This document shows, piece by piece, positions 1,144 to 10,991 of a stretch of DNA of 64,000 bases. A model generated the notes under the pieces. The model did no database searches and had not been told where the DNA came from. It saw only the letters and a program-made list of their open reading frames with translations. The DNA comes from an uncultured Candidatus Poseidoniales archaeon. Lineage in GTDB: Archaea; Thermoplasmatota; Poseidoniia; Poseidoniales; CAYMED01. The position numbers and the translations under genes were made by a program. Each line of letters starts with the position of its first letter. Position 1 is the first letter of the stretch. The stretch covers positions 64,001-128,000 of the forward strand of contig CAYMED010000002.1 in the NCBI GenBank assembly GCA_964389655.1, written 5' to 3'.

Positions 1144-2280
1144 GTGCAGAAACGAAACACTCTCCTCAAAAAGAGTTCATCTCTCCGTCTACACGACCTC
1201 ATTAAAGCCCCTGAAAATTCAGAATCATCAATTGCTGCTCGGGCCACAATGAATCCTCGGCAACCAGTCACTGTATACAGATCTCCGGAGCGCCTTCCAA
1301 ACGGTCACTTTACAGAAGCATTAACAATTGTACTTCATACAAAGGGATGCCATTGGTGGTGGTCATCTGGCTGTACTTTTTGTGGATACTATAATGATAC
1401 GAGGGATGATATTGGTGCGGATGAACTTGAAGCTCAATGGGCGGCAGCATTTGACGAGGTTGATATGAGTGAGATTGGAATGCTTAAGGTCTATACATCT
1501 GGTTCATTGTTTGAGGACCGTGAGATCCCCCCTTCATTCCAAGATAAAGTTCTGAAAACAGCATCTGAAAATGATTTACACCTTATTGTTGAATCGCGTA
1601 CTGAGCAACTTACTGATGAAAAAATATTTCATGCCACTTCCATCCATTCAGATCTTTGTGTTGCAATTGGGCTTGAGGCACACGATGATGAAGTATTGCA
1701 ATTCCACATTAACAAAGGGTTCACCGTAAAATCTTGGAAGGACGCAGCAGTAAGGCTTCGCACCGCAGGCGTACGCGTAAAGACGTACCTCATGTTCAAA
1801 CCCCCATTTATGTCAGAATATGATTCACTTTCTCACTGCATTAAATGGGTAGGACAAGTGTCACAATATTCTGATGAGATTTCAGTCAATCCGATGAACA
1901 TTCAACGAGGAACCATCATTGATCGAATCCACAGGTCGAAGAGTTACCGCCCCCCTTGGTTGTGGAGTCTCGTGAGATTGATTAAAGAGAGTCATCCTAA
2001 ACTCAACCATTCTGGTAATTTCTCTTCCCGACTCATCGTCCACCCAACGGCGGCAGGAAAAACACGTGGCGCACACAATTGTGGGTCTTGTGATTTTCAA
2101 GTTGCCTCGGCAATTGAAACATACAGCATCGATGGCTGTTTAGATATTTTTGAAGAGCTTGATTGTAATTGTCGTCAAAGATGGATGGAAGAACTCGCAA
2201 TAGAATCCTCTTTACCCATCCCCCTCGGTTTTTCCCTCACACGCCGAGGAGGCTTTCGATACAGAAATCCCCTTACTTGA
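1144..2280 (+). CDS. Archaeosine biosynthesis radical SAM protein RaSEA-like (TIGR01210 type)
   Basis: Non-canonical CX7CX2C (GCHWWWSSGCTFCGY), KVYTSGS, VESR, AIGLE, KPPF, YRPPWLWS, C-terminal GAHNCGSCD and CNC; start codon uncertain. Confidence 0.85.
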   Translation: MQKRNTLLKKSSSLRLHDLIKAPENSESSIAARATMNPRQPVTVYRSPERLPNGHFTEALTIVLHTKGCHWWWSSGCTFCGYYNDTRDDIGADELEAQWAAAFDEVDMSEIGMLKVYTSGSLFEDREIPPSFQDKVLKTASENDLHLIVESRTEQLTDEKIFHATSIHSDLCVAIGLEAHDDEVLQFHINKGFTVKSWKDAAVRLRTAGVRVKTYLMFKPPFMSEYDSLSHCIKWVGQVSQYSDEISVNPMNIQRGTIIDRIHRSKSYRPPWLWSLVRLIKESHPKLNHSGNFSSRLIVHPTAAGKTRGAHNCGSCDFQVASAIETYSIDGCLDIFEELDCNCRQRWMEELAIESSLPIPLGFSLTRRGGFRYRNPLT

Positions 2281-2374
2281 GCATAAAAAATTCTGTTAAA
2301 CCTCCGGCAATGTTTATCGGAGCAACATGGGTCGTCATGACCGTCCTATAGGGGCCCACCATTGAGGACTGATC

Positions 2375-2668
2375 TTGAGCGACGGCAAGGAACAGACAAA
2401 CTTCGTTGCTGATGTTTACGTGGGCAGTGATGAGCCACCGATGGCATCAGTTGCAATGGCATTTAGCGTAATTTGCGCCTTTATCTCCCTTATGTTCATC
2501 TCTTTGGTGCTCGGGTGGGATCGCTTACCTGCCCTTGGCTCATTGATTTCGGTATTTTCTAATTTAACCACATCTGGCATATGGTGGTATCTGATTGGGA
2601 TTATTGGGGGTGCAGCTTTGCTGGTGGCAACTTGGCTGGGCGAAGTTGTTGGGAGGGGTGTAGAATGA
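2375..2668 (+). CDS. Small two-TM membrane protein, coupled to the downstream gene
   Basis: TTG start with GAGG upstream; two hydrophobic segments; stop overlaps next start (ATGA at 2665-2668). Confidence 0.7.
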   Translation: MSDGKEQTNFVADVYVGSDEPPMASVAMAFSVICAFISLMFISLVLGWDRLPALGSLISVFSNLTTSGIWWYLIGIIGGAALLVATWLGEVVGRGVE

Positions 2669-4806
2669 ACCTTCTTCTCCTATATGCTTGCTATCTTGTT
2701 TGGATGGGAATTGTAGCATTAGTTTGCTCAAGAGGTCTTGGTGCAGCCACAGCCGGGCTCAAAGACTTTGGTAATTTCATGCTTGAAAAAGCACCAGGGC
2801 CCTTGGTTGATTTGATTGAAAACCGGGAAGGCGCGGCTTCTCGCATCTGGATGATGCATGGAGCATTTTGGATGTTTATCGCTTCATCAATAACTTTTGT
2901 ATCAATGTGGTTAGAGCAGGACCCCAAGGCCCTAGACGCTTTCAAATCGTGGGGTTGGGTATATGATTCATCGGGAATGATGGCGGCGTCGCAGGTTTCG
3001 TTTGTATCCGGTGCAGCTTCGATGCTGCTTTTGGGCAGTGCATTCCATGTAACCGAGCGAATGGGTGGAACACGCTTAGTCGGTCAACGCCTTATTGCTT
3101 TGATATCGATTGCCTGGTCACTGCTCACAGTCATAGAGATCATTGCAGCTTTTACTCAATGGACCCACACTTCCATATTATTTCCCGGCCCATGGCAATT
3201 ACAAGTTGTTCATTTATTGTTATCAATACCAATTCTAGTATCATTTGGGTTAACCGGATCTGAGTCTGAACAAGGATCCCGTGACATTTCCACATGGTTT
3301 TTCACGATGGCATCTGCAGCATTAGTATGGGTTTATTGCATATCATCGGCACGTCCATTATTCAATACATCAGAGATTGATTGGCTCTTAGCGAAAGGAC
3401 TTGAGGGTTGGTGGCTATGTGGGCTAGCATTTGGCTTGTTGTCATACATTGTTCCACACAGTGGAACTGGAAGGTTGTGGTCTCGATCGTTAGCTAGCGC
3501 TGGTTTAATCGGTTTAATGGTCTGCATTGTTCCATTTGGATCCTCTATTGAAGTAGCCACCCCCGGTGGTCTTCTCAGGGCAGTTATGCTTTGTCTCATG
3601 GCTCTTTCCTTGCTTCCAATCACCGCAACATCACTGAATATCATTGCAAGTGGCCGTGCATCATTCGGGAAAGGCGGTGGGCCCGGTGTTGTGATTGGCG
3701 TCAGTGCCGCTCTTCTCTTTTTGCTCTGTTCTTTCGGAAGTATTTTCACAAGTGGTGATGCATTTGGTGGTAATGAAGGCTTGGAAGTCTTTAGTGTAGT
3801 TAGCGATCGTGCTTTCCATTATGGGGCCCTTGGAATTACAGCATTGGCAGCATGTTCTGTCATTTGGCCACAAGTAAATGGGCGTCACCTCTTACTCCCG
3901 GGACGCGCCCGAACTGCTTGGCTCATCACTCTTGGTAGCATCATATCTGCTACAGCAGTGGGTGTGGGGGTTGGCATTGCTTCTAAGGCCTTGATTGAAG
4001 GGGGGATTACAGAAAATATACTGCAGAACCCCTCGATTGCAAGTGCGATCCGTGTTGAATCATTTTTGTTCTATGGGGTGATTATTGGATCCTTGGCAAT
4101 GACTGTACAGATGATTACCACGGCCCACCGCGGACCAATCGCAGTTCCACGTGGCTTAGTCATTGAATCTGATGTTTCAGTACCAAGACAAATTGTACCT
4201 GCTGGTGAACACAGCATGCGCAGTTTTCTTTCAATGGGCTTAACTCTTGACACAATTTTAGATTTCAATCCAACCTCTCCGGTTCCAGATATAGGGACAA
4301 CAACCGTTAATCTCGAAGACGAGGAAGATGATGATGATAAGGAAGCGGATGAGGATTGGGATGAAGAAATCGTTCTACTCGCACATCATGTAAAGAGAAG
4401 TTCAATGTCTGTGTTTGAGATATTTCAGCGATTTGATATCAATGGGGATGGTGTCCTTTCTCCATATGAATTTAGGGAGGGTTTAGCTGCATTAGAGATT
4501 GCAAATTTAGATCCATGGGATATGGACCGCATAATTCGAGCAATTGATATCAACCGAGATGGTTCGATAGACCTTCCAGAACTTGATATATTGGTTGCTC
4601 GGATAAATAGGGCAGTTCCAATAAGCCAGCCCACTTCCACCAAAGAGAACCATGCAGTTCCTGTAAAGTCAGAAAACGAATCCCCACATACAGAATCTTC
4701 CTTGAAAAAGAAGACAAAGAACGAACTTGTTGAGATTGCAAACACCCTAGGTGTCTCTCCCAAAGGAACAAAAAGTGACCTAATATCTAATATCCTTTCA
4801 GTCTGA
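2665..4806 (+). CDS. Degenerate cbb3-type oxidase subunit I (CcoN)-like multi-TM protein with C-terminal EF-hand pair and SAP/HeH-like domain
   Basis: About 12-13 TM segments colinear with CcoN landmarks (FHVTERMGGTRL, ISTWFF, SYIVPHSGTGRLWSRSL, IWPQVNGR); DINGDGVLSPYE and DINRDGSIDLPE EF-hands; LKKKTKNELVEIANTLGVSPKGTKSDLI tail. Start placed at the ATGA overlap (ORF track 2581). Confidence 0.65.
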   Translation: MNLLLLYACYLVWMGIVALVCSRGLGAATAGLKDFGNFMLEKAPGPLVDLIENREGAASRIWMMHGAFWMFIASSITFVSMWLEQDPKALDAFKSWGWVYDSSGMMAASQVSFVSGAASMLLLGSAFHVTERMGGTRLVGQRLIALISIAWSLLTVIEIIAAFTQWTHTSILFPGPWQLQVVHLLLSIPILVSFGLTGSESEQGSRDISTWFFTMASAALVWVYCISSARPLFNTSEIDWLLAKGLEGWWLCGLAFGLLSYIVPHSGTGRLWSRSLASAGLIGLMVCIVPFGSSIEVATPGGLLRAVMLCLMALSLLPITATSLNIIASGRASFGKGGGPGVVIGVSAALLFLLCSFGSIFTSGDAFGGNEGLEVFSVVSDRAFHYGALGITALAACSVIWPQVNGRHLLLPGRARTAWLITLGSIISATAVGVGVGIASKALIEGGITENILQNPSIASAIRVESFLFYGVIIGSLAMTVQMITTAHRGPIAVPRGLVIESDVSVPRQIVPAGEHSMRSFLSMGLTLDTILDFNPTSPVPDIGTTTVNLEDEEDDDDKEADEDWDEEIVLLAHHVKRSSMSVFEIFQRFDINGDGVLSPYEFREGLAALEIANLDPWDMDRIIRAIDINRDGSIDLPELDILVARINRAVPISQPTSTKENHAVPVKSENESPHTESSLKKKTKNELVEIANTLGVSPKGTKSDLISNILSV

Positions 4807-4815
4807 TGATGTTCA

Positions 4816-6093
4816 ATGAGAATTGGTTTGGTTGGAAAACCAAATGTTGGAAAGTCAACATTATTCAGTGCACTAACTGAAACTCCCGTTGAAATAGCGA
4901 ATTATCCTTTCACAACAATTGATCCAAATGTGGGCGTATCATTTGTCAAATCATCTCAACCATGCCCATGCAAAATACGTAGGATCGGTCTTCAAGAAGA
5001 TGGCAGACTAGATTCTTCATCGCTAGATGATCCAAGGCAGGGAAGCCTTTGTAATCCCCGCACAGGAAGCTGTGTCAACTATCATCGTCGTGTTCCTGTA
5101 CACTTGATTGATGTTGCTGGTTTAGTCCCTGGAGCTTCAGAAGGCCGCGGAAGAGGGAATCAATTCCTCTCTGATTTAACACGTGCAGATTTATTGATTC
5201 AGGTGATTGATATTTCGGGCCGCACGAATCTTGAGGGGCAACCAATTGAAAATAACCCACCCGATCCCTTTTCCGAGCATCAATTCCTAGTTGATGAATT
5301 GGATGCGTGGATTTCCAGCCTGATTTCAGATGGTTGGGCTCGAATTGCTAGAAAGGCCCAGGGCGATGGAATTCGGGGAATTGAAAACGCCCTTATTGAA
5401 AAATTATCGGGGTTAGGTGCTAATCGCGCTAATATTCACTTTTCATTATCGAATGCTAAAGACACTCTAAATATGAATGAACCTTGGAATTGGAGCCAAG
5501 TTGAACTTAATTTCCTAGCCAAATTAATACGCCCTTCAATTTATCCAATCGTAATTGCCGCAAATAAAGCAGACGCAGCAGAAAGTGGTGCTGCTGAATC
5601 CCTTTCCTCAAAATTATTGGATCAGAGTATTCCAGTTATTTCAACGAGTGCAGACACAGAACTTGCAATATCCCGGGCACGTTCATCGGGGCTATTGTCC
5701 CTCTCCAATGAATCCCCCCGGCCCCAAATATCTCCTGATGCCGAACCGACTTCAGCCCAAGCAGCAGCCCTGACTCAACTAATTGACCGATGGGAGAAAC
5801 TTGGTGGAACTGGTGTTGATCAATTAATGTCATATGTGGTGTTTGACCATTTGGAACAAATAACGGTCTACCCTGTATCTGATGAAACACATTGGACAGA
5901 TGCAGATGGGAAAATATTGCCTGATGCGCATTTAATGATCAAGGGGAGCACAGCTCGTGATCTTGCTTATTCCGTCCATTCAGACTTTGGTGAGGGCTTT
6001 ATCCGAGCGATTGATGGACGAACAGGGCGCACATTGGGTGCCGAACACGAATTACTAGATGGTGATGTGATACGCATTCATGCCCGAACATAG
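4816..6093 (+). CDS. ychF: Archaeal YchF/Ola1-family OBG GTPase with TGS domain
   Basis: GKPNVGKST, NYPFTTIDPN, DVAGLV, GRGNQFL, NKAD, C-terminal TGS domain (STARDLAYSVHSD). Confidence 0.93.
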   Translation: MRIGLVGKPNVGKSTLFSALTETPVEIANYPFTTIDPNVGVSFVKSSQPCPCKIRRIGLQEDGRLDSSSLDDPRQGSLCNPRTGSCVNYHRRVPVHLIDVAGLVPGASEGRGRGNQFLSDLTRADLLIQVIDISGRTNLEGQPIENNPPDPFSEHQFLVDELDAWISSLISDGWARIARKAQGDGIRGIENALIEKLSGLGANRANIHFSLSNAKDTLNMNEPWNWSQVELNFLAKLIRPSIYPIVIAANKADAAESGAAESLSSKLLDQSIPVISTSADTELAISRARSSGLLSLSNESPRPQISPDAEPTSAQAAALTQLIDRWEKLGGTGVDQLMSYVVFDHLEQITVYPVSDETHWTDADGKILPDAHLMIKGSTARDLAYSVHSDFGEGFIRAIDGRTGRTLGAEHELLDGDVIRIHART

Positions 6094-7589: not shown

Positions 7590-10500
7590 TTATTCTTCGT
7601 GCTGTAACCAATCATGCACGCCAGGTCTTCTATACCAAAGGTTTCCACTACCTGCGGGGTGCTCCATCCATTCAATCCCACTTTCATCGACAATGACTGA
7701 ATCGTAAGCCTCTTCACCATATTCTTCTGCCTCTTCAAACGCATCCATGTCTATCCGGCCAGTTCGAAGTATTAGCACAAAGAGAACAGCCATACCAATT
7801 AACACAAAACCAGCAAGTGCGACAATAACGATGGCTCCACCCCCATTATTTTCTTCGGTCTGTGCCTGAGATGCTCGGCTTAGGCTTGCCTTTTCTCCAC
7901 TATTGGTGGTTGTATTTTCAGTACCTATATTACTCGATTCTGGCGTGGTCGAAGCACTATTGTCTTCTAACCCAGTAATGTCAGGGTTACTCGGGTCAGC
8001 ATCATTCTCATCAGATACTCCATCCCCATCTCTATCGGGACAACCGTACCGGTCGATCCAAGATGTCCCCTTGAATGCGGGACAGGCATCGGGTTCTATT
8101 CCATCCGGATTATCTCCGTAGTCATCCTCATCTCGATTTTCCCATTGTGTCTTTTCATTTGGAAATGCATCAGCTCCATCGGCCCAATGATCTCCATCCC
8201 CATCTAGGCACCCCAACAACCCTTTCGTTGATGTTCCAGCAACTTTTGGACAATCATCGAAAGGTGCAACCGCACTTGCAGCGAACTCAGGGTCGTCCCA
8301 ACCATCATTATCCCAATCTAATGGCCATTGGTCCGCATTATTTGCACCAGGGAGCCATTCACCAGGATAACTTTCAACTCTTTCTTGATGCCACATAGGA
8401 CTTCCATAATTATCTCCGAGCCCATCTCGATCGGTGTCATTCCACTGGGTTGGATCGTCGAAAAATGCATCTGCGCCATTATCTATCGTCCAATCTGCTG
8501 TTGGATTAGATGCCCCGTCCCCGTCCTGGTCTGGACATCCAAAGCGATCAATATACGATGTGCCATGCTCATTCACGCAGCCATCCGGCTCAAACCCATC
8601 TGCCTCATCTCCAAAGCCATCTCCATCCCTATCTTCCCATTGTGTGGGTTCAGATGGAAATGCGTCTATTTTGTTTGCACCAATTGATTGATTATCACCC
8701 CATCCATCCCCATCGAGGTCTGACCACTGAGTTGGTTCATTTGGTAGTGCATCAGATTGCGACGCTCCTTTTGTTTGATTATCACCCCACCCATCTCCGT
8801 CACTATCTGAGTGTTGGGTTGGGTTCATCGGAAATGCATCACCGAATGGATGATCCGACCACCCATCGAGATCAGTATCTGGGCAACCATATCCATCTAG
8901 TGCAATTCCTCCGGCTTCAAATGGGCATCCATCAGGTTGGTGGGCCCCAATATGGAATTGACCAATGACGGGAGTTTCTGATTCCCGCATGTCCGTCCAA
9001 GACGAATCAGCCCAATTATCTCCATATCCATCCTCATCCATATCAGCCCATTGTGTCTTTTCGTTTGGAAACGCATCGCCCCCATCATCCTTTGTCCACC
9101 CGCTATCAGTATTGGAATATCCATCCTCATCTGAGTCAAGACAACCTAGTCGGTCGGCCGAAGAAGTTCCCGCAATTGTCGGGCACGCGTCCCCATTATG
9201 TCCACCCGATTCATCGCCCCATCCATCCCCATCTGAGTCGGCCCATTGGGTGCCGTCCCCTGGAAATTCATCATTTGTATCAGCCCATCCGTCGCCATCT
9301 GAATCTACACATCCTAGAACATTACCTTTTGAGGAGGTTCCCGCAATTGTTGGACAGCTGTCAACATTATCCCCAAACCCATCCCCATCAGAATCAGCAA
9401 CCATGCGCCAAATAAATCCGTCAGACCCTCCGTTGTTTGTAAGAGTAAGATCACCAATTGTTGTTGGTGATGTTCCATTTCCGCCAAATAATCCCACAGC
9501 ATAAATAGTTCCAGAAGAATCAATTGTGATATCGACCCCTTGATCATCATTGGTGCTTCCAGTTGCAATAACTTCTGTCCACGCACCCGTGGTATCAAAT
9601 GATAGAATTAGGATGTCAGATCCGCCTTGAGGTGAAATTGTTTTTGTTCCAGAACCTGAAATTGGGATCGATATGGACGTACTATCAAAAGAGGCGGCAA
9701 ACCACACATCACCTGACGATTCTGCCTCAATACCATATCCGTATTCATCCCCTCCTCCCCCCAAACTCATAATCCAAGATGGATTTCCTGAAGTGGCAGT
9801 TATGGAAGCAACAAACAAGTCACTTCCTCCAGCATTTGATGCACTTTTTGATCCCAAATTTATTGACCCTCCATCATAGGAACCAGATGCAAATACATTA
9901 CCGGACGAATCAACTTCTAATCCTTCAATAGATTCATCCCCTGTCCCTGATATTTGGGATGTCCAACTAACCACTTGGTTGGATGGATTAATACGGACAA
10001 GAAGGGAGTCTTGTCCCCCAGTACTTGTATGTGATTTACCCCATATGTTGGCAGTTTCTTCAAAAAGAATTGAAATAACAGTTTCCTGCGAACCTATTTC
10101 TTCCATTTCAACACCCAAATCACCTCCCGCACCCCCTGCTGTTGAGATCCAAGTCCATGATCCAGATGTGGTAAGGCCCCCAAAAAACACATCAAGTGTT
10201 GTTTGTCCCGTAGCATCCGTATTCGATGTAATGGATTTTGATCCCACAGTCATGGTTTCAGCATACGTTCCTAGAACGACTACCTCGTTACCGATTAATT
10301 CCACATCAAATAATGCGCCAGCACCACCATTTCCGAAGGATGAAGTATCATATGGAATACTTTCTGCCCACGACCAAACACCGTTTGAATTAATTTTGGC
10401 AACCCACCCATTCAAGATCCAATCAGAGTGTCCTTGAATTGTTGTTGAACCAAATGTAGTGGATGGTGAGGTGTAGGTGGTGATGTCTTGACTATATCCA

Positions 10501-10991
10501 GCAACATATGCATTACCCTGTGCATCGACTGTAATTCCGAATGCGCGGTCATTGGTTGAACCTCCTGCTTTTGCGGCCCACACCCATTGCCCAGTCGCAG
10601 TCATCCTAGCAATGAATACATCATAATCTCCAGAACTTGAAAGGGTGGTGGAGCCAAAAGATGCAGTGTCACTGAATAACCCTATGAGCCAAATATCCCC
10701 ATTAGGGCCAGTAACTGATTTTAGGATCAAATCTTCACCAGAACCTCCCATTCCTTCTGCCCAACTCGCCGCAGTTCCACTGGCGCGTGCGCTAACTTGG
10801 CTAAATACGAGATCTCTCCTCTCTAAATCAATCGATTCAAAGTCTTGGATTGCATCTTTAATCACAGCATCCGGTCCCGTAATAGCTGTTTCAGCGGCAG
10901 CAAGGATTGAAAGAGAAAGAAATCCTATGATTACCGCGAAAGAACGGCGCGCTGCGTAGCATCTAGTGGACATAGCCAAGCCCCTGATCAT
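7590..10991 (-). CDS. Membrane-anchored surface protein: SBBP-like beta-propeller, thrombospondin type-3 Ca-binding repeats, TM, small Trp-rich cytoplasmic domain
   Basis: Signal peptide; propeller repeats (GGSTNDRAFGITVDAQGNAYVAG); many DAFPxxxTQWxDxDGDGxGD units; TM GAIVIVALAGFVLIGMAVLFVLIL; tail DESGIEWMEHPAGSGNLWYR. Confidence 0.85.
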   Translation of the reverse strand: MIRGLAMSTRCYAARRSFAVIIGFLSLSILAAAETAITGPDAVIKDAIQDFESIDLERRDLVFSQVSARASGTAASWAEGMGGSGEDLILKSVTGPNGDIWLIGLFSDTASFGSTTLSSSGDYDVFIARMTATGQWVWAAKAGGSTNDRAFGITVDAQGNAYVAGYSQDITTYTSPSTTFGSTTIQGHSDWILNGWVAKINSNGVWSWAESIPYDTSSFGNGGAGALFDVELIGNEVVVLGTYAETMTVGSKSITSNTDATGQTTLDVFFGGLTTSGSWTWISTAGGAGGDLGVEMEEIGSQETVISILFEETANIWGKSHTSTGGQDSLLVRINPSNQVVSWTSQISGTGDESIEGLEVDSSGNVFASGSYDGGSINLGSKSASNAGGSDLFVASITATSGNPSWIMSLGGGGDEYGYGIEAESSGDVWFAASFDSTSISIPISGSGTKTISPQGGSDILILSFDTTGAWTEVIATGSTNDDQGVDITIDSSGTIYAVGLFGGNGTSPTTIGDLTLTNNGGSDGFIWRMVADSDGDGFGDNVDSCPTIAGTSSKGNVLGCVDSDGDGWADTNDEFPGDGTQWADSDGDGWGDESGGHNGDACPTIAGTSSADRLGCLDSDEDGYSNTDSGWTKDDGGDAFPNEKTQWADMDEDGYGDNWADSSWTDMRESETPVIGQFHIGAHQPDGCPFEAGGIALDGYGCPDTDLDGWSDHPFGDAFPMNPTQHSDSDGDGWGDNQTKGASQSDALPNEPTQWSDLDGDGWGDNQSIGANKIDAFPSEPTQWEDRDGDGFGDEADGFEPDGCVNEHGTSYIDRFGCPDQDGDGASNPTADWTIDNGADAFFDDPTQWNDTDRDGLGDNYGSPMWHQERVESYPGEWLPGANNADQWPLDWDNDGWDDPEFAASAVAPFDDCPKVAGTSTKGLLGCLDGDGDHWADGADAFPNEKTQWENRDEDDYGDNPDGIEPDACPAFKGTSWIDRYGCPDRDGDGVSDENDADPSNPDITGLEDNSASTTPESSNIGTENTTTNSGEKASLSRASQAQTEENNGGGAIVIVALAGFVLIGMAVLFVLILRTGRIDMDAFEEAEEYGEEAYDSVIVDESGIEWMEHPAGSGNLWYRRPGVHDWLQHEE

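What the first reader, a model, noticed from the sequence alone, without database searches (positions are those of the whole stretch)
2375..4806. Metal-free heme-copper oxidase scaffold fused to EF-hands: candidate Ca2+-responsive pseudo-oxidase
Seen: a multi-TM body, an acidic linker, two canonical EF-hand loops (about 4435 and 4546) and a SAP/HeH-like tail, coupled by ATGA to a small two-TM gene. By-eye alignment to cbb3 CcoN is colinear, yet every ligand motif is altered: RLRPLHT reads GMMAASQ, WWYGHNAVG reads WLLAKGLEG, WAGPHHL reads PFGSSIE, WTIGHVHSGALG reads FSVVSDRAFHYG. Established: these six His bind the low-spin heme, high-spin heme and CuB. No ccoO/ccoP is nearby. Inference: a non-catalytic oxidase fold reused as a Ca2+-gated channel, sensor or scaffold, possibly binding nucleic acid through its tail. 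This is my best candidate for an undescribed system.
Basis: partly seen in the sequence, partly recalled or inferred. Interest (0 to 1): 0.85.

Follow-up and report, generated by a model that had tools for sequence, protein, structure and literature searches.

The report
Cofactor-less oxidase relic, core of Poseidoniales
Every genome sampled from the abundant marine archaea Poseidoniales (Marine Group II) keeps, under strong selection, a membrane protein that has the fold of the oxygen-reducing subunit of a bacterial-type cbb3 oxidase but has lost all heme and copper ligands; in this genome it also carries calcium-binding EF-hands and a SAP-like tail, so it is a re-purposed "dead" oxidase whose function is unknown.

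Summary

**What the gene is**
- Window 2665-4806 (+) encodes a 713-aa protein. Residues ~54-494 are a true homologue of CcoN, subunit I of C-family (cbb3) heme-copper oxidases.
- Support: profile vs PDB E about 1e-16; hhalign probability 99.9%; AlphaFold pLDDT 84; Foldseek top hit 3MK7 with TM 0.72/0.84.
The cross-link Tyr251 is I288.
- No ligand column is kept as His across 58 family members.

**Conservation and context**
- The gene is single-copy in all 43 Poseidoniales genomes searched. No member was found in 165 other genomes of the phylum.
- dN/dS is about 0.05-0.13.
- It always follows a conserved ~90-aa two-TM gene, inside the block RaSEA, small gene, this gene, YchF-type GTPase.
- The genome has a real A-type oxidase but no CcoO or CcoP.

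**The cytoplasmic tail**
- The canonical EF-hand pair and the SAP motif are accessory: most MGIIb orthologues lack them.

**Reading**
- This is a functional, non-redox relic. Its role (ion or proton conduit, or a scaffold) is inferred only.
- This scan earlier noted cofactor-less CcoN families in bacteria, on other DNA. This archaeal family differs: it has no cytochrome partners, it is core to an order, and it has an EF/SAP tail.

The parts
2375..2668 (+). Small partner gene: 97 aa, two TM helices, acidic N- and C-termini, near-invariant G-x-x-E-P before TM1 and G-I-W before TM2. TTG start with GAGGA 7 nt upstream.
   Evidence: An orthologue lies directly upstream of the large gene in essentially all 41 loci examined: 39 recognised, 35 aligned. 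No Pfam family.
2665..4806 (+). Large gene: 713-aa cofactor-less CcoN-like protein with a cytoplasmic tail. The ATG overlaps the small gene's stop as ATGA.
   Evidence: Exact sequence on record as P0003.
2665..2823 (+). N-terminal extension not present in CcoN: extra TM helix (aa 3-23), an amphipathic helix and a conserved K-A-P-G motif (aa 28-50).
   Evidence: AF2 secondary structure. Invariant G24, F38 and K42. The hhalign match to COX1 starts at aa 54.
2824..4146 (+). Twelve-TM heme-copper-oxidase subunit I fold (aa 54-494), closest to cbb3 CcoN, with every heme and CuB ligand replaced.
   Evidence: Ligand columns.
3394..3396 (+). K244 at the CuB His207 position (TM VI). Across the family this column is R/H/K in 46 of 58 sequences.
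3802..3810 (+). S380-D381-R382 on TM X. S380 and R382 replace His345 (heme b3) and His347 (heme b). D381 is D/E in 42 of 58 sequences and co-occurs with a basic residue at position 244 in 37 of 58.
4177..4299 (+). Short conserved cytoplasmic segment after TM XII (aa 505-545; R519, G525, D529, T530 near-invariant). It is present even in tail-less orthologues.
   Evidence: It is modelled with low confidence.
4321..4374 (+). Acidic linker (aa 553-570).
4414..4584 (+). EF-hand pair (aa 584-640). Canonical Ca2+ loops at nt 4435-4470 and nt 4546-4581.
4702..4797 (+). SAP/Rho_N-like helix-extended-helix tail (aa 680-711).
   Evidence: Rho_N E 0.0037, below cut-off, in this protein. SAP is above cut-off in orthologues whose tails align with it.
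1144..2280 (+). Upstream neighbour: archaeosine radical-SAM enzyme RaSEA. Same strand in 41 of 41 loci.
4816..6093 (+). Downstream neighbour: YchF-related GTPase, 9 nt after the stop. Same strand and directly downstream in 41 of 41 loci.

Best explanation
**Shown**
- The 713-aa protein is a cofactor-less descendant of the catalytic subunit (CcoN) of a C-family (cbb3-type) heme-copper oxidase.
- It keeps the 12-helix fold and the CcoN membrane orientation, with the tail in the cytoplasm.
- It has no residue able to ligate heme b, heme b3 or CuB in the canonical way, no cross-link Tyr, and no CcoO or CcoP partner. It therefore cannot be an oxygen or NO reductase.
- It is nevertheless a functional, vertically inherited, single-copy core gene of Candidatus Poseidoniales. 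It is always paired with a ~90-aa two-TM gene and is under strong purifying selection.

**Inferred (about 0.9)**
- The two products form a non-redox membrane complex whose essential part is the TM body plus the small subunit.
- The EF-hand pair and SAP motif are lineage-specific cytoplasmic add-ons. They probably give Ca2+ sensitivity and a nucleic-acid or protein tether in MGIIa and in this genome's family.

**Mechanism I commit to (about 0.3, inferred only)**
- The relic uses what remains of the oxidase's cytoplasm-facing proton-uptake side as a proton or cation conduit or sensor.
- That remnant consists of the Asn/Thr stripe on TM VIII, the W-S motif in the VI-VII loop, Asn/Thr on TM IV, and a buried Arg/Lys/His (TM VI) with Asp/Glu (TM X) pair in place of the CuB-heme b3 centre.
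- Where EF-hands are present they modulate it with cytoplasmic Ca2+.
For: **Homology and fold**
- A 5-sequence family profile searched against 1.8 billion proteins finds genuine PF00115 proteins colinearly at E 9e-9 to 9e-4.
- The 58-sequence profile hits five cbb3 CcoN chains in the PDB at E 1.5e-16 to 2.6e-13.
- hhalign against real COX1/CcoN sequences gives probability 99.9%, E 3.7e-33, 437 columns.
- The AF2 model has pLDDT 84 and pTM 0.85. Foldseek ranks cbb3 CcoN first (TM 0.72/0.84, rmsd 3.0 A), then NorB, then ba3.
- ESM Atlas models of the family and of bacterial cbb3 subunit I agree.

**Ligand loss**
-.

**No partners, but a real oxidase elsewhere**
-.

**Distribution**
- 41 of 41 and 36 of 36 genomes of the order have it, 43 different genomes in all. 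Among 165 other genomes of the phylum there were only two marginal partial matches.
- The order is identified as Poseidoniales.
- The family tree mirrors the three taxonomic families.

**Selection**
- dN/dS is 0.05-0.13 in the TM body and 0.03-0.16 in the tail.

**Partner gene and gene block**
-.

**Topology**
- Mean K+R per sequence is 6.9 in the loops predicted cytoplasmic against 0.7 in the loops predicted external.

**EF loops**
- They are canonical in all 23 orthologues that have them.

**Residues shared with true CcoN**
- T197, W211, P264, W272/S273, P318 and N325 correspond to invariant columns of the CcoN set.

**Buried basic-acidic pair**
-.
Against: - No experiment or transcript data bear on function.
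- The residues I read as a channel remnant could be kept for helix packing alone. P0055, a bacterial ligand-less relative, keeps the Y-S loop motif and the TM VIII Pro/Asn too.
- No exit pathway was examined, because model coordinates could not be analysed.
- The basic-acidic pair is present in only 37 of 58 sequences.
- EF-hands are absent from all 18 MGIIb orthologues examined and SAP from 15 of them, so any Ca2+ gating is not universal.
- Gene order is broadly conserved in this order: the PSD gene upstream is syntenic too. The neighbourhood is therefore weak evidence for functional coupling.
- That CcoN's TM VIII Asn/Thr belong to the proton-input channel rests on my recollection of the literature (Hemp et al. 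2007; Buschmann et al. 2010). I could not verify it in the held papers.
Confidence: 0.6

Rival explanations
1. Inert structural platform in the respiratory membrane. The relic docks to the Rieske/cytochrome b complex or to the A-type oxidase of Poseidoniales and organises a supercomplex or electron-carrier docking. This would parallel the bacterial cofactor-less CcoN families that sit beside ACIII or bc-type complexes.
For: - Ligand-less CcoN relatives exist in respiratory gene clusters. P0055 is a ligand-less CcoN-FixO fusion between ResB/CcsA, Rieske/cytochrome b, a di-heme cytochrome c and complex I genes.
- The scan's earlier, unchecked notes describe the same in Verrucomicrobiota, Actinomarina and Acidimicrobiia.
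- All Poseidoniales are aerobes, and this genome has an A-type COX1.
- MGII is reported to have cytochrome b and Rieske genes but no canonical bc1 (PMC6336850).
Against: - No respiratory gene lies near the locus in any of 41 genomes. The conserved neighbours are RaSEA and a YchF-type GTPase.
- There are no c-type cytochrome domains of the cbb3 kind in the genome.
- In the tree the archaeal family is not nested in the sampled bacterial ligand-less clade, so a shared function is not implied.
Confidence: 0.22
2. Membrane tether. The TM body is only an anchor, and the functional parts are cytoplasmic. The SAP motif binds the nucleoid or RNA, the EF-hands sense Ca2+, and the downstream YchF-type ribosome-binding GTPase is recruited to the membrane.
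For: - SAP is above Pfam's cut-off in orthologues of all three families.
- The tail is cytoplasmic.
- The YchF gene starts 3-70 nt downstream in nearly all genomes, and the block is specific to the order.
Against: - 15 of the 18 MGIIb orthologues examined have no tail at all, yet keep the TM body at dN/dS about 0.05-0.13.
- Many invariant residues lie inside the membrane, which a mere anchor would not require.
Confidence: 0.1
3. It is still a redox enzyme that binds heme or metal through unconventional ligands (Lys, Met, Tyr, Asp).
For: - A basic residue, His in 17 of 58 sequences, persists at the CuB His207 position.
- Relatives with partial ligand sets exist, for example P0084, which keeps the three CuB His but has Tyr/Gln at the heme positions.
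Against: - Both axial positions of heme b and the axial position of heme b3 are hydrophobic or variable across the family. No His, Met or Cys column is conserved.
- There is no electron-donor subunit in the genome.
Confidence: 0.03
4. A decaying pseudogene or an annotation artefact.
For: None beyond the loss of catalytic residues.
Against: - The reading frame is intact in 43 genomes.
- dN/dS is about 0.05-0.13.
- The AF2 model is confident, and the partner gene is conserved.
Confidence: 0.01

Closest known systems
CcoN (FixN), subunit I of cbb3-type (C-family) cytochrome c oxidase, e.g. Pseudomonas stutzeri 3MK7/5DJQ chain A
   Same: - Twelve-TM fold, colinear over about 440 residues, with the same membrane orientation.
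- Shared non-ligand invariant residues: Thr at the end of TM IV, Trp at the start of TM V, the P..(Y/W)S loop, and Pro/Asn/Thr on TM VIII.
- Best sequence and structure match.
   Different: - All six His ligands and the cross-link Tyr are replaced.
- There is an extra N-terminal TM helix and a conserved C-terminal segment, and the tail carries EF-hands and a SAP motif.
- There are no CcoO, CcoP or CcoQ partners.
- The host is archaeal. From my own knowledge, not checked in a paper here, C-family oxidases are regarded as bacterial.
NorB of cNOR (3O0R, 4XYD) and other NOR-type members of the heme-copper superfamily
   Same: Same superfamily fold; second-best group of structural matches.
   Different: NORs keep all six His and add a Glu for FeB (PMC11214002). 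The sequence-profile match to NorB is insignificant (E 0.7).
Bacterial cofactor-less CcoN relics (Verrucomicrobiota beside ACIII; Actinomarina and Acidimicrobiia beside bc-type complexes). These are known to me only from this scan's own unchecked notes and from P0055 seen here.
   Same: A CcoN fold that has lost its heme and Cu ligands yet is conserved.
   Different: - Those keep c-type cytochrome partners (CcoO/CcoP-like, with CxxCH intact) and lie in respiratory operons.
- The Poseidoniales family has neither.
- The Poseidoniales family has a small two-TM partner and EF/SAP tails, is core to a whole archaeal order, and forms a separate clade in the tree.
Calmodulin-like EF-hand pairs and the SAP (PF02037) motif
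   Same: Canonical 12-residue loops; best PDB matches are calmodulins and CaBP1. The tail motif matches SAP/Rho_N.
   Different: Here they are C-terminal appendages of a polytopic oxidase-fold protein. I found no description of that architecture in the papers searched.

Membership tests
Heme-copper oxidoreductase superfamily, subunit I (PF00115 COX1) | Twelve-TM subunit I fold | tested here: met
   AF2 pLDDT 84. Foldseek to 3MK7 gives TM 0.72/0.84 and rmsd 3.0 A over 466 columns. Atlas search agrees.
Heme-copper oxidoreductase superfamily, subunit I (PF00115 COX1) | Significant sequence homology to family members | tested here: met
   Family profile vs PDB CcoN E 1.5e-16. hhalign probability 99.9%, E 3.7e-33. 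Pfam's own COX1 model does not reach this protein but passes its cut-off on orthologue P0008 at 43.2 bits.
Heme-copper oxidoreductase superfamily, subunit I (PF00115 COX1) | Six invariant His: two for the low-spin heme, one for the high-spin heme, three for CuB/FeB | tested here: not met
   S109, K244, S294/I295, S380 and R382 occupy these positions. No ligand column is conserved as His in 58 sequences.
Heme-copper oxidoreductase superfamily, subunit I (PF00115 COX1) | Bound hemes and copper; O2 or NO reduction | not testable with these tools
   Needs purified protein: hemochrome assay, ICP-MS and an activity assay.
C-family (cbb3) oxygen reductase CcoNOP | Active-site cross-linked Tyr on TM VII (Tyr251 in P. 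stutzeri) | tested here: not met
   I288 in this protein; I/V/L in 51 of 58 family members.
C-family (cbb3) oxygen reductase CcoNOP | CcoO (FixO) and CcoP c-type cytochrome subunits | tested here: not met
   No PF02433 and no PF13442 match in the 93%-complete genome. The conserved neighbours are RaSEA and a YchF-type GTPase.
EF-hand (PF00036 / PF13499) | Paired helix-loop-helix with 12-residue loops D-x-[DNS]-x-[DNSG]-G-x-[ILV]-x-x-x-E | tested here: met
   Pfam E 5e-11, above cut-off. Both loops are canonical here and in all 23 orthologues that have tails with EF-hands.
EF-hand (PF00036 / PF13499) | Ca2+ binding | not testable with these tools
   Needs ITC or a 45Ca overlay on the expressed tail.
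SAP / Rho_N helix-extended-helix motif (PF02037, PF07498) | Profile match above the curated cut-off | tested here: inconclusive
   In this protein Rho_N scores 17.6 bits against a cut-off of 24.9, and there is no SAP hit at E<=0.01. Orthologous tails that align with it pass SAP at 26-35 bits against 23.9.
Bacterial cofactor-less CcoN relics (scan notes) | Adjacent c-type cytochrome subunits and a complex III or ACIII operon | tested here: not met
   Compare P0055.

The most novel reading that the evidence does not exclude
A new kind of membrane ion-conducting or signalling module built from the proton-uptake half of a cbb3 oxidase.

- The small two-TM subunit would be the relic of the CcoP membrane anchor. 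Its near-invariant Glu-Pro before TM1 would sit at the channel mouth. A weak FixP_N match over that very segment exists, in 2 of 35 members at E 1e-3 and below cut-off.
- A buried Lys/Arg/His with Asp pair would replace the CuB-heme b3 centre as the gating or binding site.
- Cytoplasmic EF-hands would gate the module with Ca2+, and the SAP motif would tie it to the nucleoid or to RNA.
- It would be an order-defining invention of Marine Group II archaea, acquired from a bacterial C-family oxidase.
Probability: 0.15. Interest if true: 0.85.

Novelty: new variant of a known kind. Interest (0 to 1): 0.66.

Why it matters
- **Abundance.** Poseidoniales (Marine Group II) are among the most abundant archaea of the surface ocean and are uncultured. 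A gene present in every genome sampled, specific to the order and of unknown function, marks biology still missing from their metabolic reconstructions.
- **Annotation.** The orthologue in the reference MG-II genome is named 'putative cb-type cytochrome c oxidase subunit I', and some members pass Pfam's COX1 cut-off. Automatic pipelines can therefore credit these archaea with a high-affinity oxidase that they cannot have.
- **Bioenergetics.** This is a clear case of the heme-copper-oxidase fold surviving without any cofactor ligands, in an archaeon, derived from the family thought to be bacterial. It could test which parts of the fold (channels, packing) have a use independent of redox chemistry.

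Tried and rejected
- **AlphaFold with 5 sequences.** The model was unusable (pLDDT 39). It was replaced by a run on a 58-sequence alignment.
- **Complex prediction, TM body with the small protein.** No verdict (score 0.22 against a mark of 0.32). This is not evidence either way.
- **The look-up of sequencing runs (RNA).** No RNA holder was listed. Expression and co-transcription were therefore not examined, and read laying was not used.
- **Small protein.** No Pfam family matched. The PDB profile search gave only chance-level hits to V-ATPase subunit e (E about 1). The ESM Atlas gave only the protein's own archaeal clusters. FixP_N matched 2 of 35 members at E 1e-3 and 19 bits against a cut-off of 24.9. 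I keep this as a lead, not a finding.
- **The search for related loci.** With A3 there was no conserved stretch. With A2 nothing was confirmed. It succeeded only with an MGIIa orthologue.
- **The search for homologous proteins.** The word index returned only 5 proteins each time.
- **The look-up of encoding contigs for P0062.** Not on record.
- **Literature.** Six searches and four papers gave no description of this family. They also gave no confirmation of the cbb3 proton-channel residue list that I recall.
- **Idea rejected: insertion between a pre-existing gene pair.** I considered that the cassette had been inserted between an already adjacent RaSEA-YchF pair. In five genomes of sister lineages the two genes are not adjacent.
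- **Idea rejected: an alternative His set.** His is never above 47% in any column.
Full report
**1. What is in the sequence**

Window 2375-2668 (+) encodes a 97-aa protein. It has two hydrophobic helices and a TTG start preceded by GAGGA.

The large frame is open from ATG 2581, but the real start is ATG 2665. That codon overlaps the small gene's stop as ATGA and follows a GGGAGGGG stretch. All orthologues align from this Met. One public gene model uses 2581 and gives 741 aa; another uses 2665 and gives 713 aa.

Pfam finds only the following:
- an EF-hand pair at aa 584-640, E 5e-11;
- a sub-threshold Rho_N/SAP-like match at aa 680-711;
- nothing for the TM body at E<=10 other than one chance-level match (E 2.2).

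The two Ca2+ loops, DINGDGVLSPYE and DINRDGSIDLPE, are canonical. An acidic run fills aa 553-570.

The neighbours identify an archaeon: archaetidylserine decarboxylase, the archaeosine enzyme RaSEA, a YchF-related GTPase and a phosphomutase.

**2. The TM body is a homologue of cbb3 CcoN**

- A profile of five close orthologues, searched against 1.8 billion representative proteins, found 79 hits. Beyond the family itself these are colinear matches (query about 56-444) at E 9e-9 to 9e-4. Each of the ten remote hits I scanned matches Pfam COX1 (nine above its cut-off), and two of them are fused to FixO.
- I then collected orthologues from 41 genomes.
- The 58-sequence profile hits five cbb3 CcoN chains in the PDB at E 1.5e-16 to 2.6e-13. 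NorB scores only E 0.7.
- hhalign against an alignment of the real COX1/CcoN hits gives probability 99.9%, E 3.7e-33 and 437 aligned columns, aa 54-494.
- AlphaFold failed with 5 sequences (pLDDT 39). With 58 sequences it gives pLDDT 84 and pTM 0.85.
- Foldseek ranks cbb3 CcoN first (3MK7: TM 0.72 by query, 0.84 by target; rmsd 3.0 A; 466 columns). cNOR NorB comes next, then ba3, aa3 and bo3.
- Independent ESM Atlas models of family clusters and of bacterial cbb3 subunit I match too.

**3. The ligands are gone**

The coordinates printed verify the 3MK7 numbering: His207, Tyr251, His257/258 and His345/347. The alignment starts at residue 61, just after His60.

The hhalign alignment maps the ligands as follows:

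| P. stutzeri CcoN | This protein |
|---|---|
| His60 (heme b) | S109 |
| His207 (CuB) | K244 |
| Tyr251 (cross-link) | I288 |
| His257 / His258 (CuB) | S294 / I295 |
| His345 (heme b3) | S380 |
| His347 (heme b) | R382 |

HMMER shifts the HH loop by three residues, but there is no His anywhere in aa 286-301.

Across 58 members:
- the His60 column is G/V/F/Y;
- the His345 column is V/L/M/I;
- the His347 column is variable, with His in 6 sequences;
- the HH columns are variable;
- the Tyr column is I/V/L;
- no His column exceeds 47%, and no Cys or Met column is conserved.

So no alternative ligand set exists.

One ligand position is not random. The His207 column is R, H or K in 46 of 58 sequences. 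The residue between the two TM X histidines (D381) is D or E in 42 of 58. The two co-occur in 37 of 58. A buried basic-acidic pair thus tends to replace the binuclear centre.

**4. It is functional and defines an order**

- The family is present, single-copy and with an open frame, in 41 of 41 genomes (relatives search) and 36 of 36 genomes (phylum sample) of the order. That is 43 different genomes, 3 families and at least 16 genera.
- In 165 genomes from the rest of the phylum, only two marginal partial matches appear.
- Record titles identify the order as Candidatus Poseidoniales (Marine Group II). G003 is the closed MG-II genome CM001443.1.
- The family tree reproduces the three taxonomic families, which indicates vertical descent from the order's ancestor. 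The family is not nested within the sampled bacterial C-type sequences, ligand-less ones included. The sample is small and the branches are long.
- Pairwise dN/dS is 0.05-0.13 for the TM body and 0.03-0.16 for the tail where dS is not saturated.
- The genome also has a normal A-type COX1 (E 1.3e-146). It has no FixO and no cbb3-type cytochrome c domain.

**5. Partner gene and neighbourhood**

A small two-TM gene lies directly upstream in essentially every genome. In the few loci my script skipped, its motif filter or frame choice was the cause. The gene ends 5-15 nt before the large gene's start, or overlaps it.

Its conserved residues are G17, P21, P52, I69, W70, G75 and G79 (invariant) and E20 (near-invariant).

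It has no family. A FixP_N (CcoP N-terminal anchor) match covers the Glu-Pro/TM1 segment in 2 of 35 members, at E 1e-3 and below cut-off. This is only a lead.

The block RaSEA, small gene, large gene, YchF-type GTPase is on one strand in 41 of 41 loci. The GTPase gene starts 3-70 nt after the stop in almost all of them. In five genomes of sister lineages RaSEA and YchF are not adjacent.

Wider synteny is also conserved (the PSD gene), so I give this little weight for function.

**6. Anatomy and topology**

- The protein adds one TM helix and an amphipathic helix with a conserved K-A-P-G motif in front of the CcoN core. It also adds a short conserved segment (R519, G525, D529, T530) after TM XII.
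- Mean K+R is 6.9 in the loops that homology places in the cytoplasm and 0.7 in the external loops. The CcoN orientation is therefore kept, and the tail is cytoplasmic.
- The tail is modular:
  - EF pair plus SAP, with a long coiled region in the sister genome, in this genome's family;
  - EF pair in all 21 MGIIa orthologues examined, plus SAP in two genera and part of a third;
  - SAP alone in two MGIIb genera;
  - no tail in the other MGIIb genomes.
- Ca2+ sensing is therefore an accessory, not the core function.

**7. How it most likely works**

Shown: the fold; the ligand loss; the lack of redox partners; conservation; the partner gene; the orientation.

Inferred: the protein is a non-redox membrane complex with the small subunit.

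Residues that stay invariant both here and in true CcoN are:
- Thr at the end of TM IV;
- Trp at the start of TM V;
- the P..(Y/W)S motif of the VI-VII loop;
- Pro, Asn and Thr on TM VIII.

From my own recollection of Hemp et al. 2007 and Buschmann et al. 2010, the TM VIII Asn/Thr and neighbouring residues line the single proton-input channel of cbb3 oxidases, and a CcoP Glu marks its mouth. I could not verify this in the held papers.

On that basis I commit, at about 0.3, to a proton or cation conduit or sensor that re-uses this side of the fold. It would end at the buried basic-acidic pair and be modulated by the EF-hands where they are present.

Rival readings:
- a passive platform for respiratory complexes, about 0.22;
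- a membrane tether for nucleoid, RNA or YchF, about 0.1;
- a cryptic redox enzyme, 0.03;
- a decaying gene, 0.01.

**8. Relation to what is known**

The protein works on the scaffold of CcoN but fails the defining features of the family (ligands, Tyr, partners). I therefore file it as a cofactor-less derivative, not as an oxidase.

The MG-II genome's orthologue EHR75896.1 is named 'putative cb-type cytochrome c oxidase subunit I'; other records say 'hypothetical protein'.

The papers searched do not describe the family:
- Meheust et al. 2022 mention only that Poseidoniales-specific modules contain calcium-binding domains (PMC9258230).
- Tully 2019 lists only low-affinity cytochrome c oxidases and, in a few clades, cytochrome bd (PMC6336850).

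This scan has earlier notes of cofactor-less CcoN families in bacteria beside ACIII or bc-type complexes. I saw one such protein myself: P0055, a ligand-less CcoN-FixO fusion with CxxCH intact, in a respiratory cluster.

The archaeal family differs in four ways. It lacks cytochrome partners and respiratory synteny. It has its own small partner. It has EF/SAP tails. It is a core gene of an order.

**9. Verdict**

Novelty: a new variant of a known kind. Interest: 0.66.

Noticed in passing
L097:6001-8001 (protein P0055), metagenome contig: A 666-aa ligand-less CcoN-like domain (F/Q/I-R/N/E at the His positions) fused to a FixO domain that keeps its CxxCH. It lies between ResB/CcsA cytochrome c biogenesis genes, Rieske/cytochrome b genes, a di-heme cytochrome c and complex I genes. 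It looks like the bacterial 'cofactor-less CcoN with cytochrome partners' type.
   Followed up: partly
protein P0084 (484 aa, metagenome): A CcoN-like protein above Pfam's COX1 cut-off. It keeps the three CuB His and the Tyr, but has Tyr, Tyr and Gln at the heme b / heme b3 axial positions (His60, His345, His347). It may be an unusual active-site variant.
   Followed up: no
protein P0062 (484 aa, metagenome): A ligand-less CcoN-like protein ending in a Cys-rich tail (CCRECCAGCC). Its contig is not on record.
   Followed up: no
window 2581-2664: One public gene model starts the large gene at ATG 2581 (741 aa), overlapping the small gene by 88 nt in another frame. Orthologue alignment supports ATG 2665 (713 aa).
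   Followed up: yes
window 1144-6093 and 41 related loci: The block RaSEA, small TM gene, pseudo-CcoN, YchF-type GTPase is kept on one strand in all Poseidoniales genomes examined. RaSEA and YchF are not adjacent in five genomes of sister lineages.
   Followed up: partly
G066:C4:7511-8527: In a genome of the sister order the YchF-type GTPase match lies in a 628-aa open frame, about 200 aa longer than usual. This may be a fusion or a long N-terminal extension.
   Followed up: no
window 7590-10991 (-): A 1133-aa protein with a beta-propeller (SBBP) repeat and a weak thrombospondin type 3 match, otherwise without a family. Probably a secreted or surface protein.
   Followed up: no
L001 (G000:C1:14994-16325, -): The genome's real A-type COX1 lies in a 776-aa open frame, so it carries a long extension or a fusion beyond the 436-position COX1 domain.
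   Followed up: no
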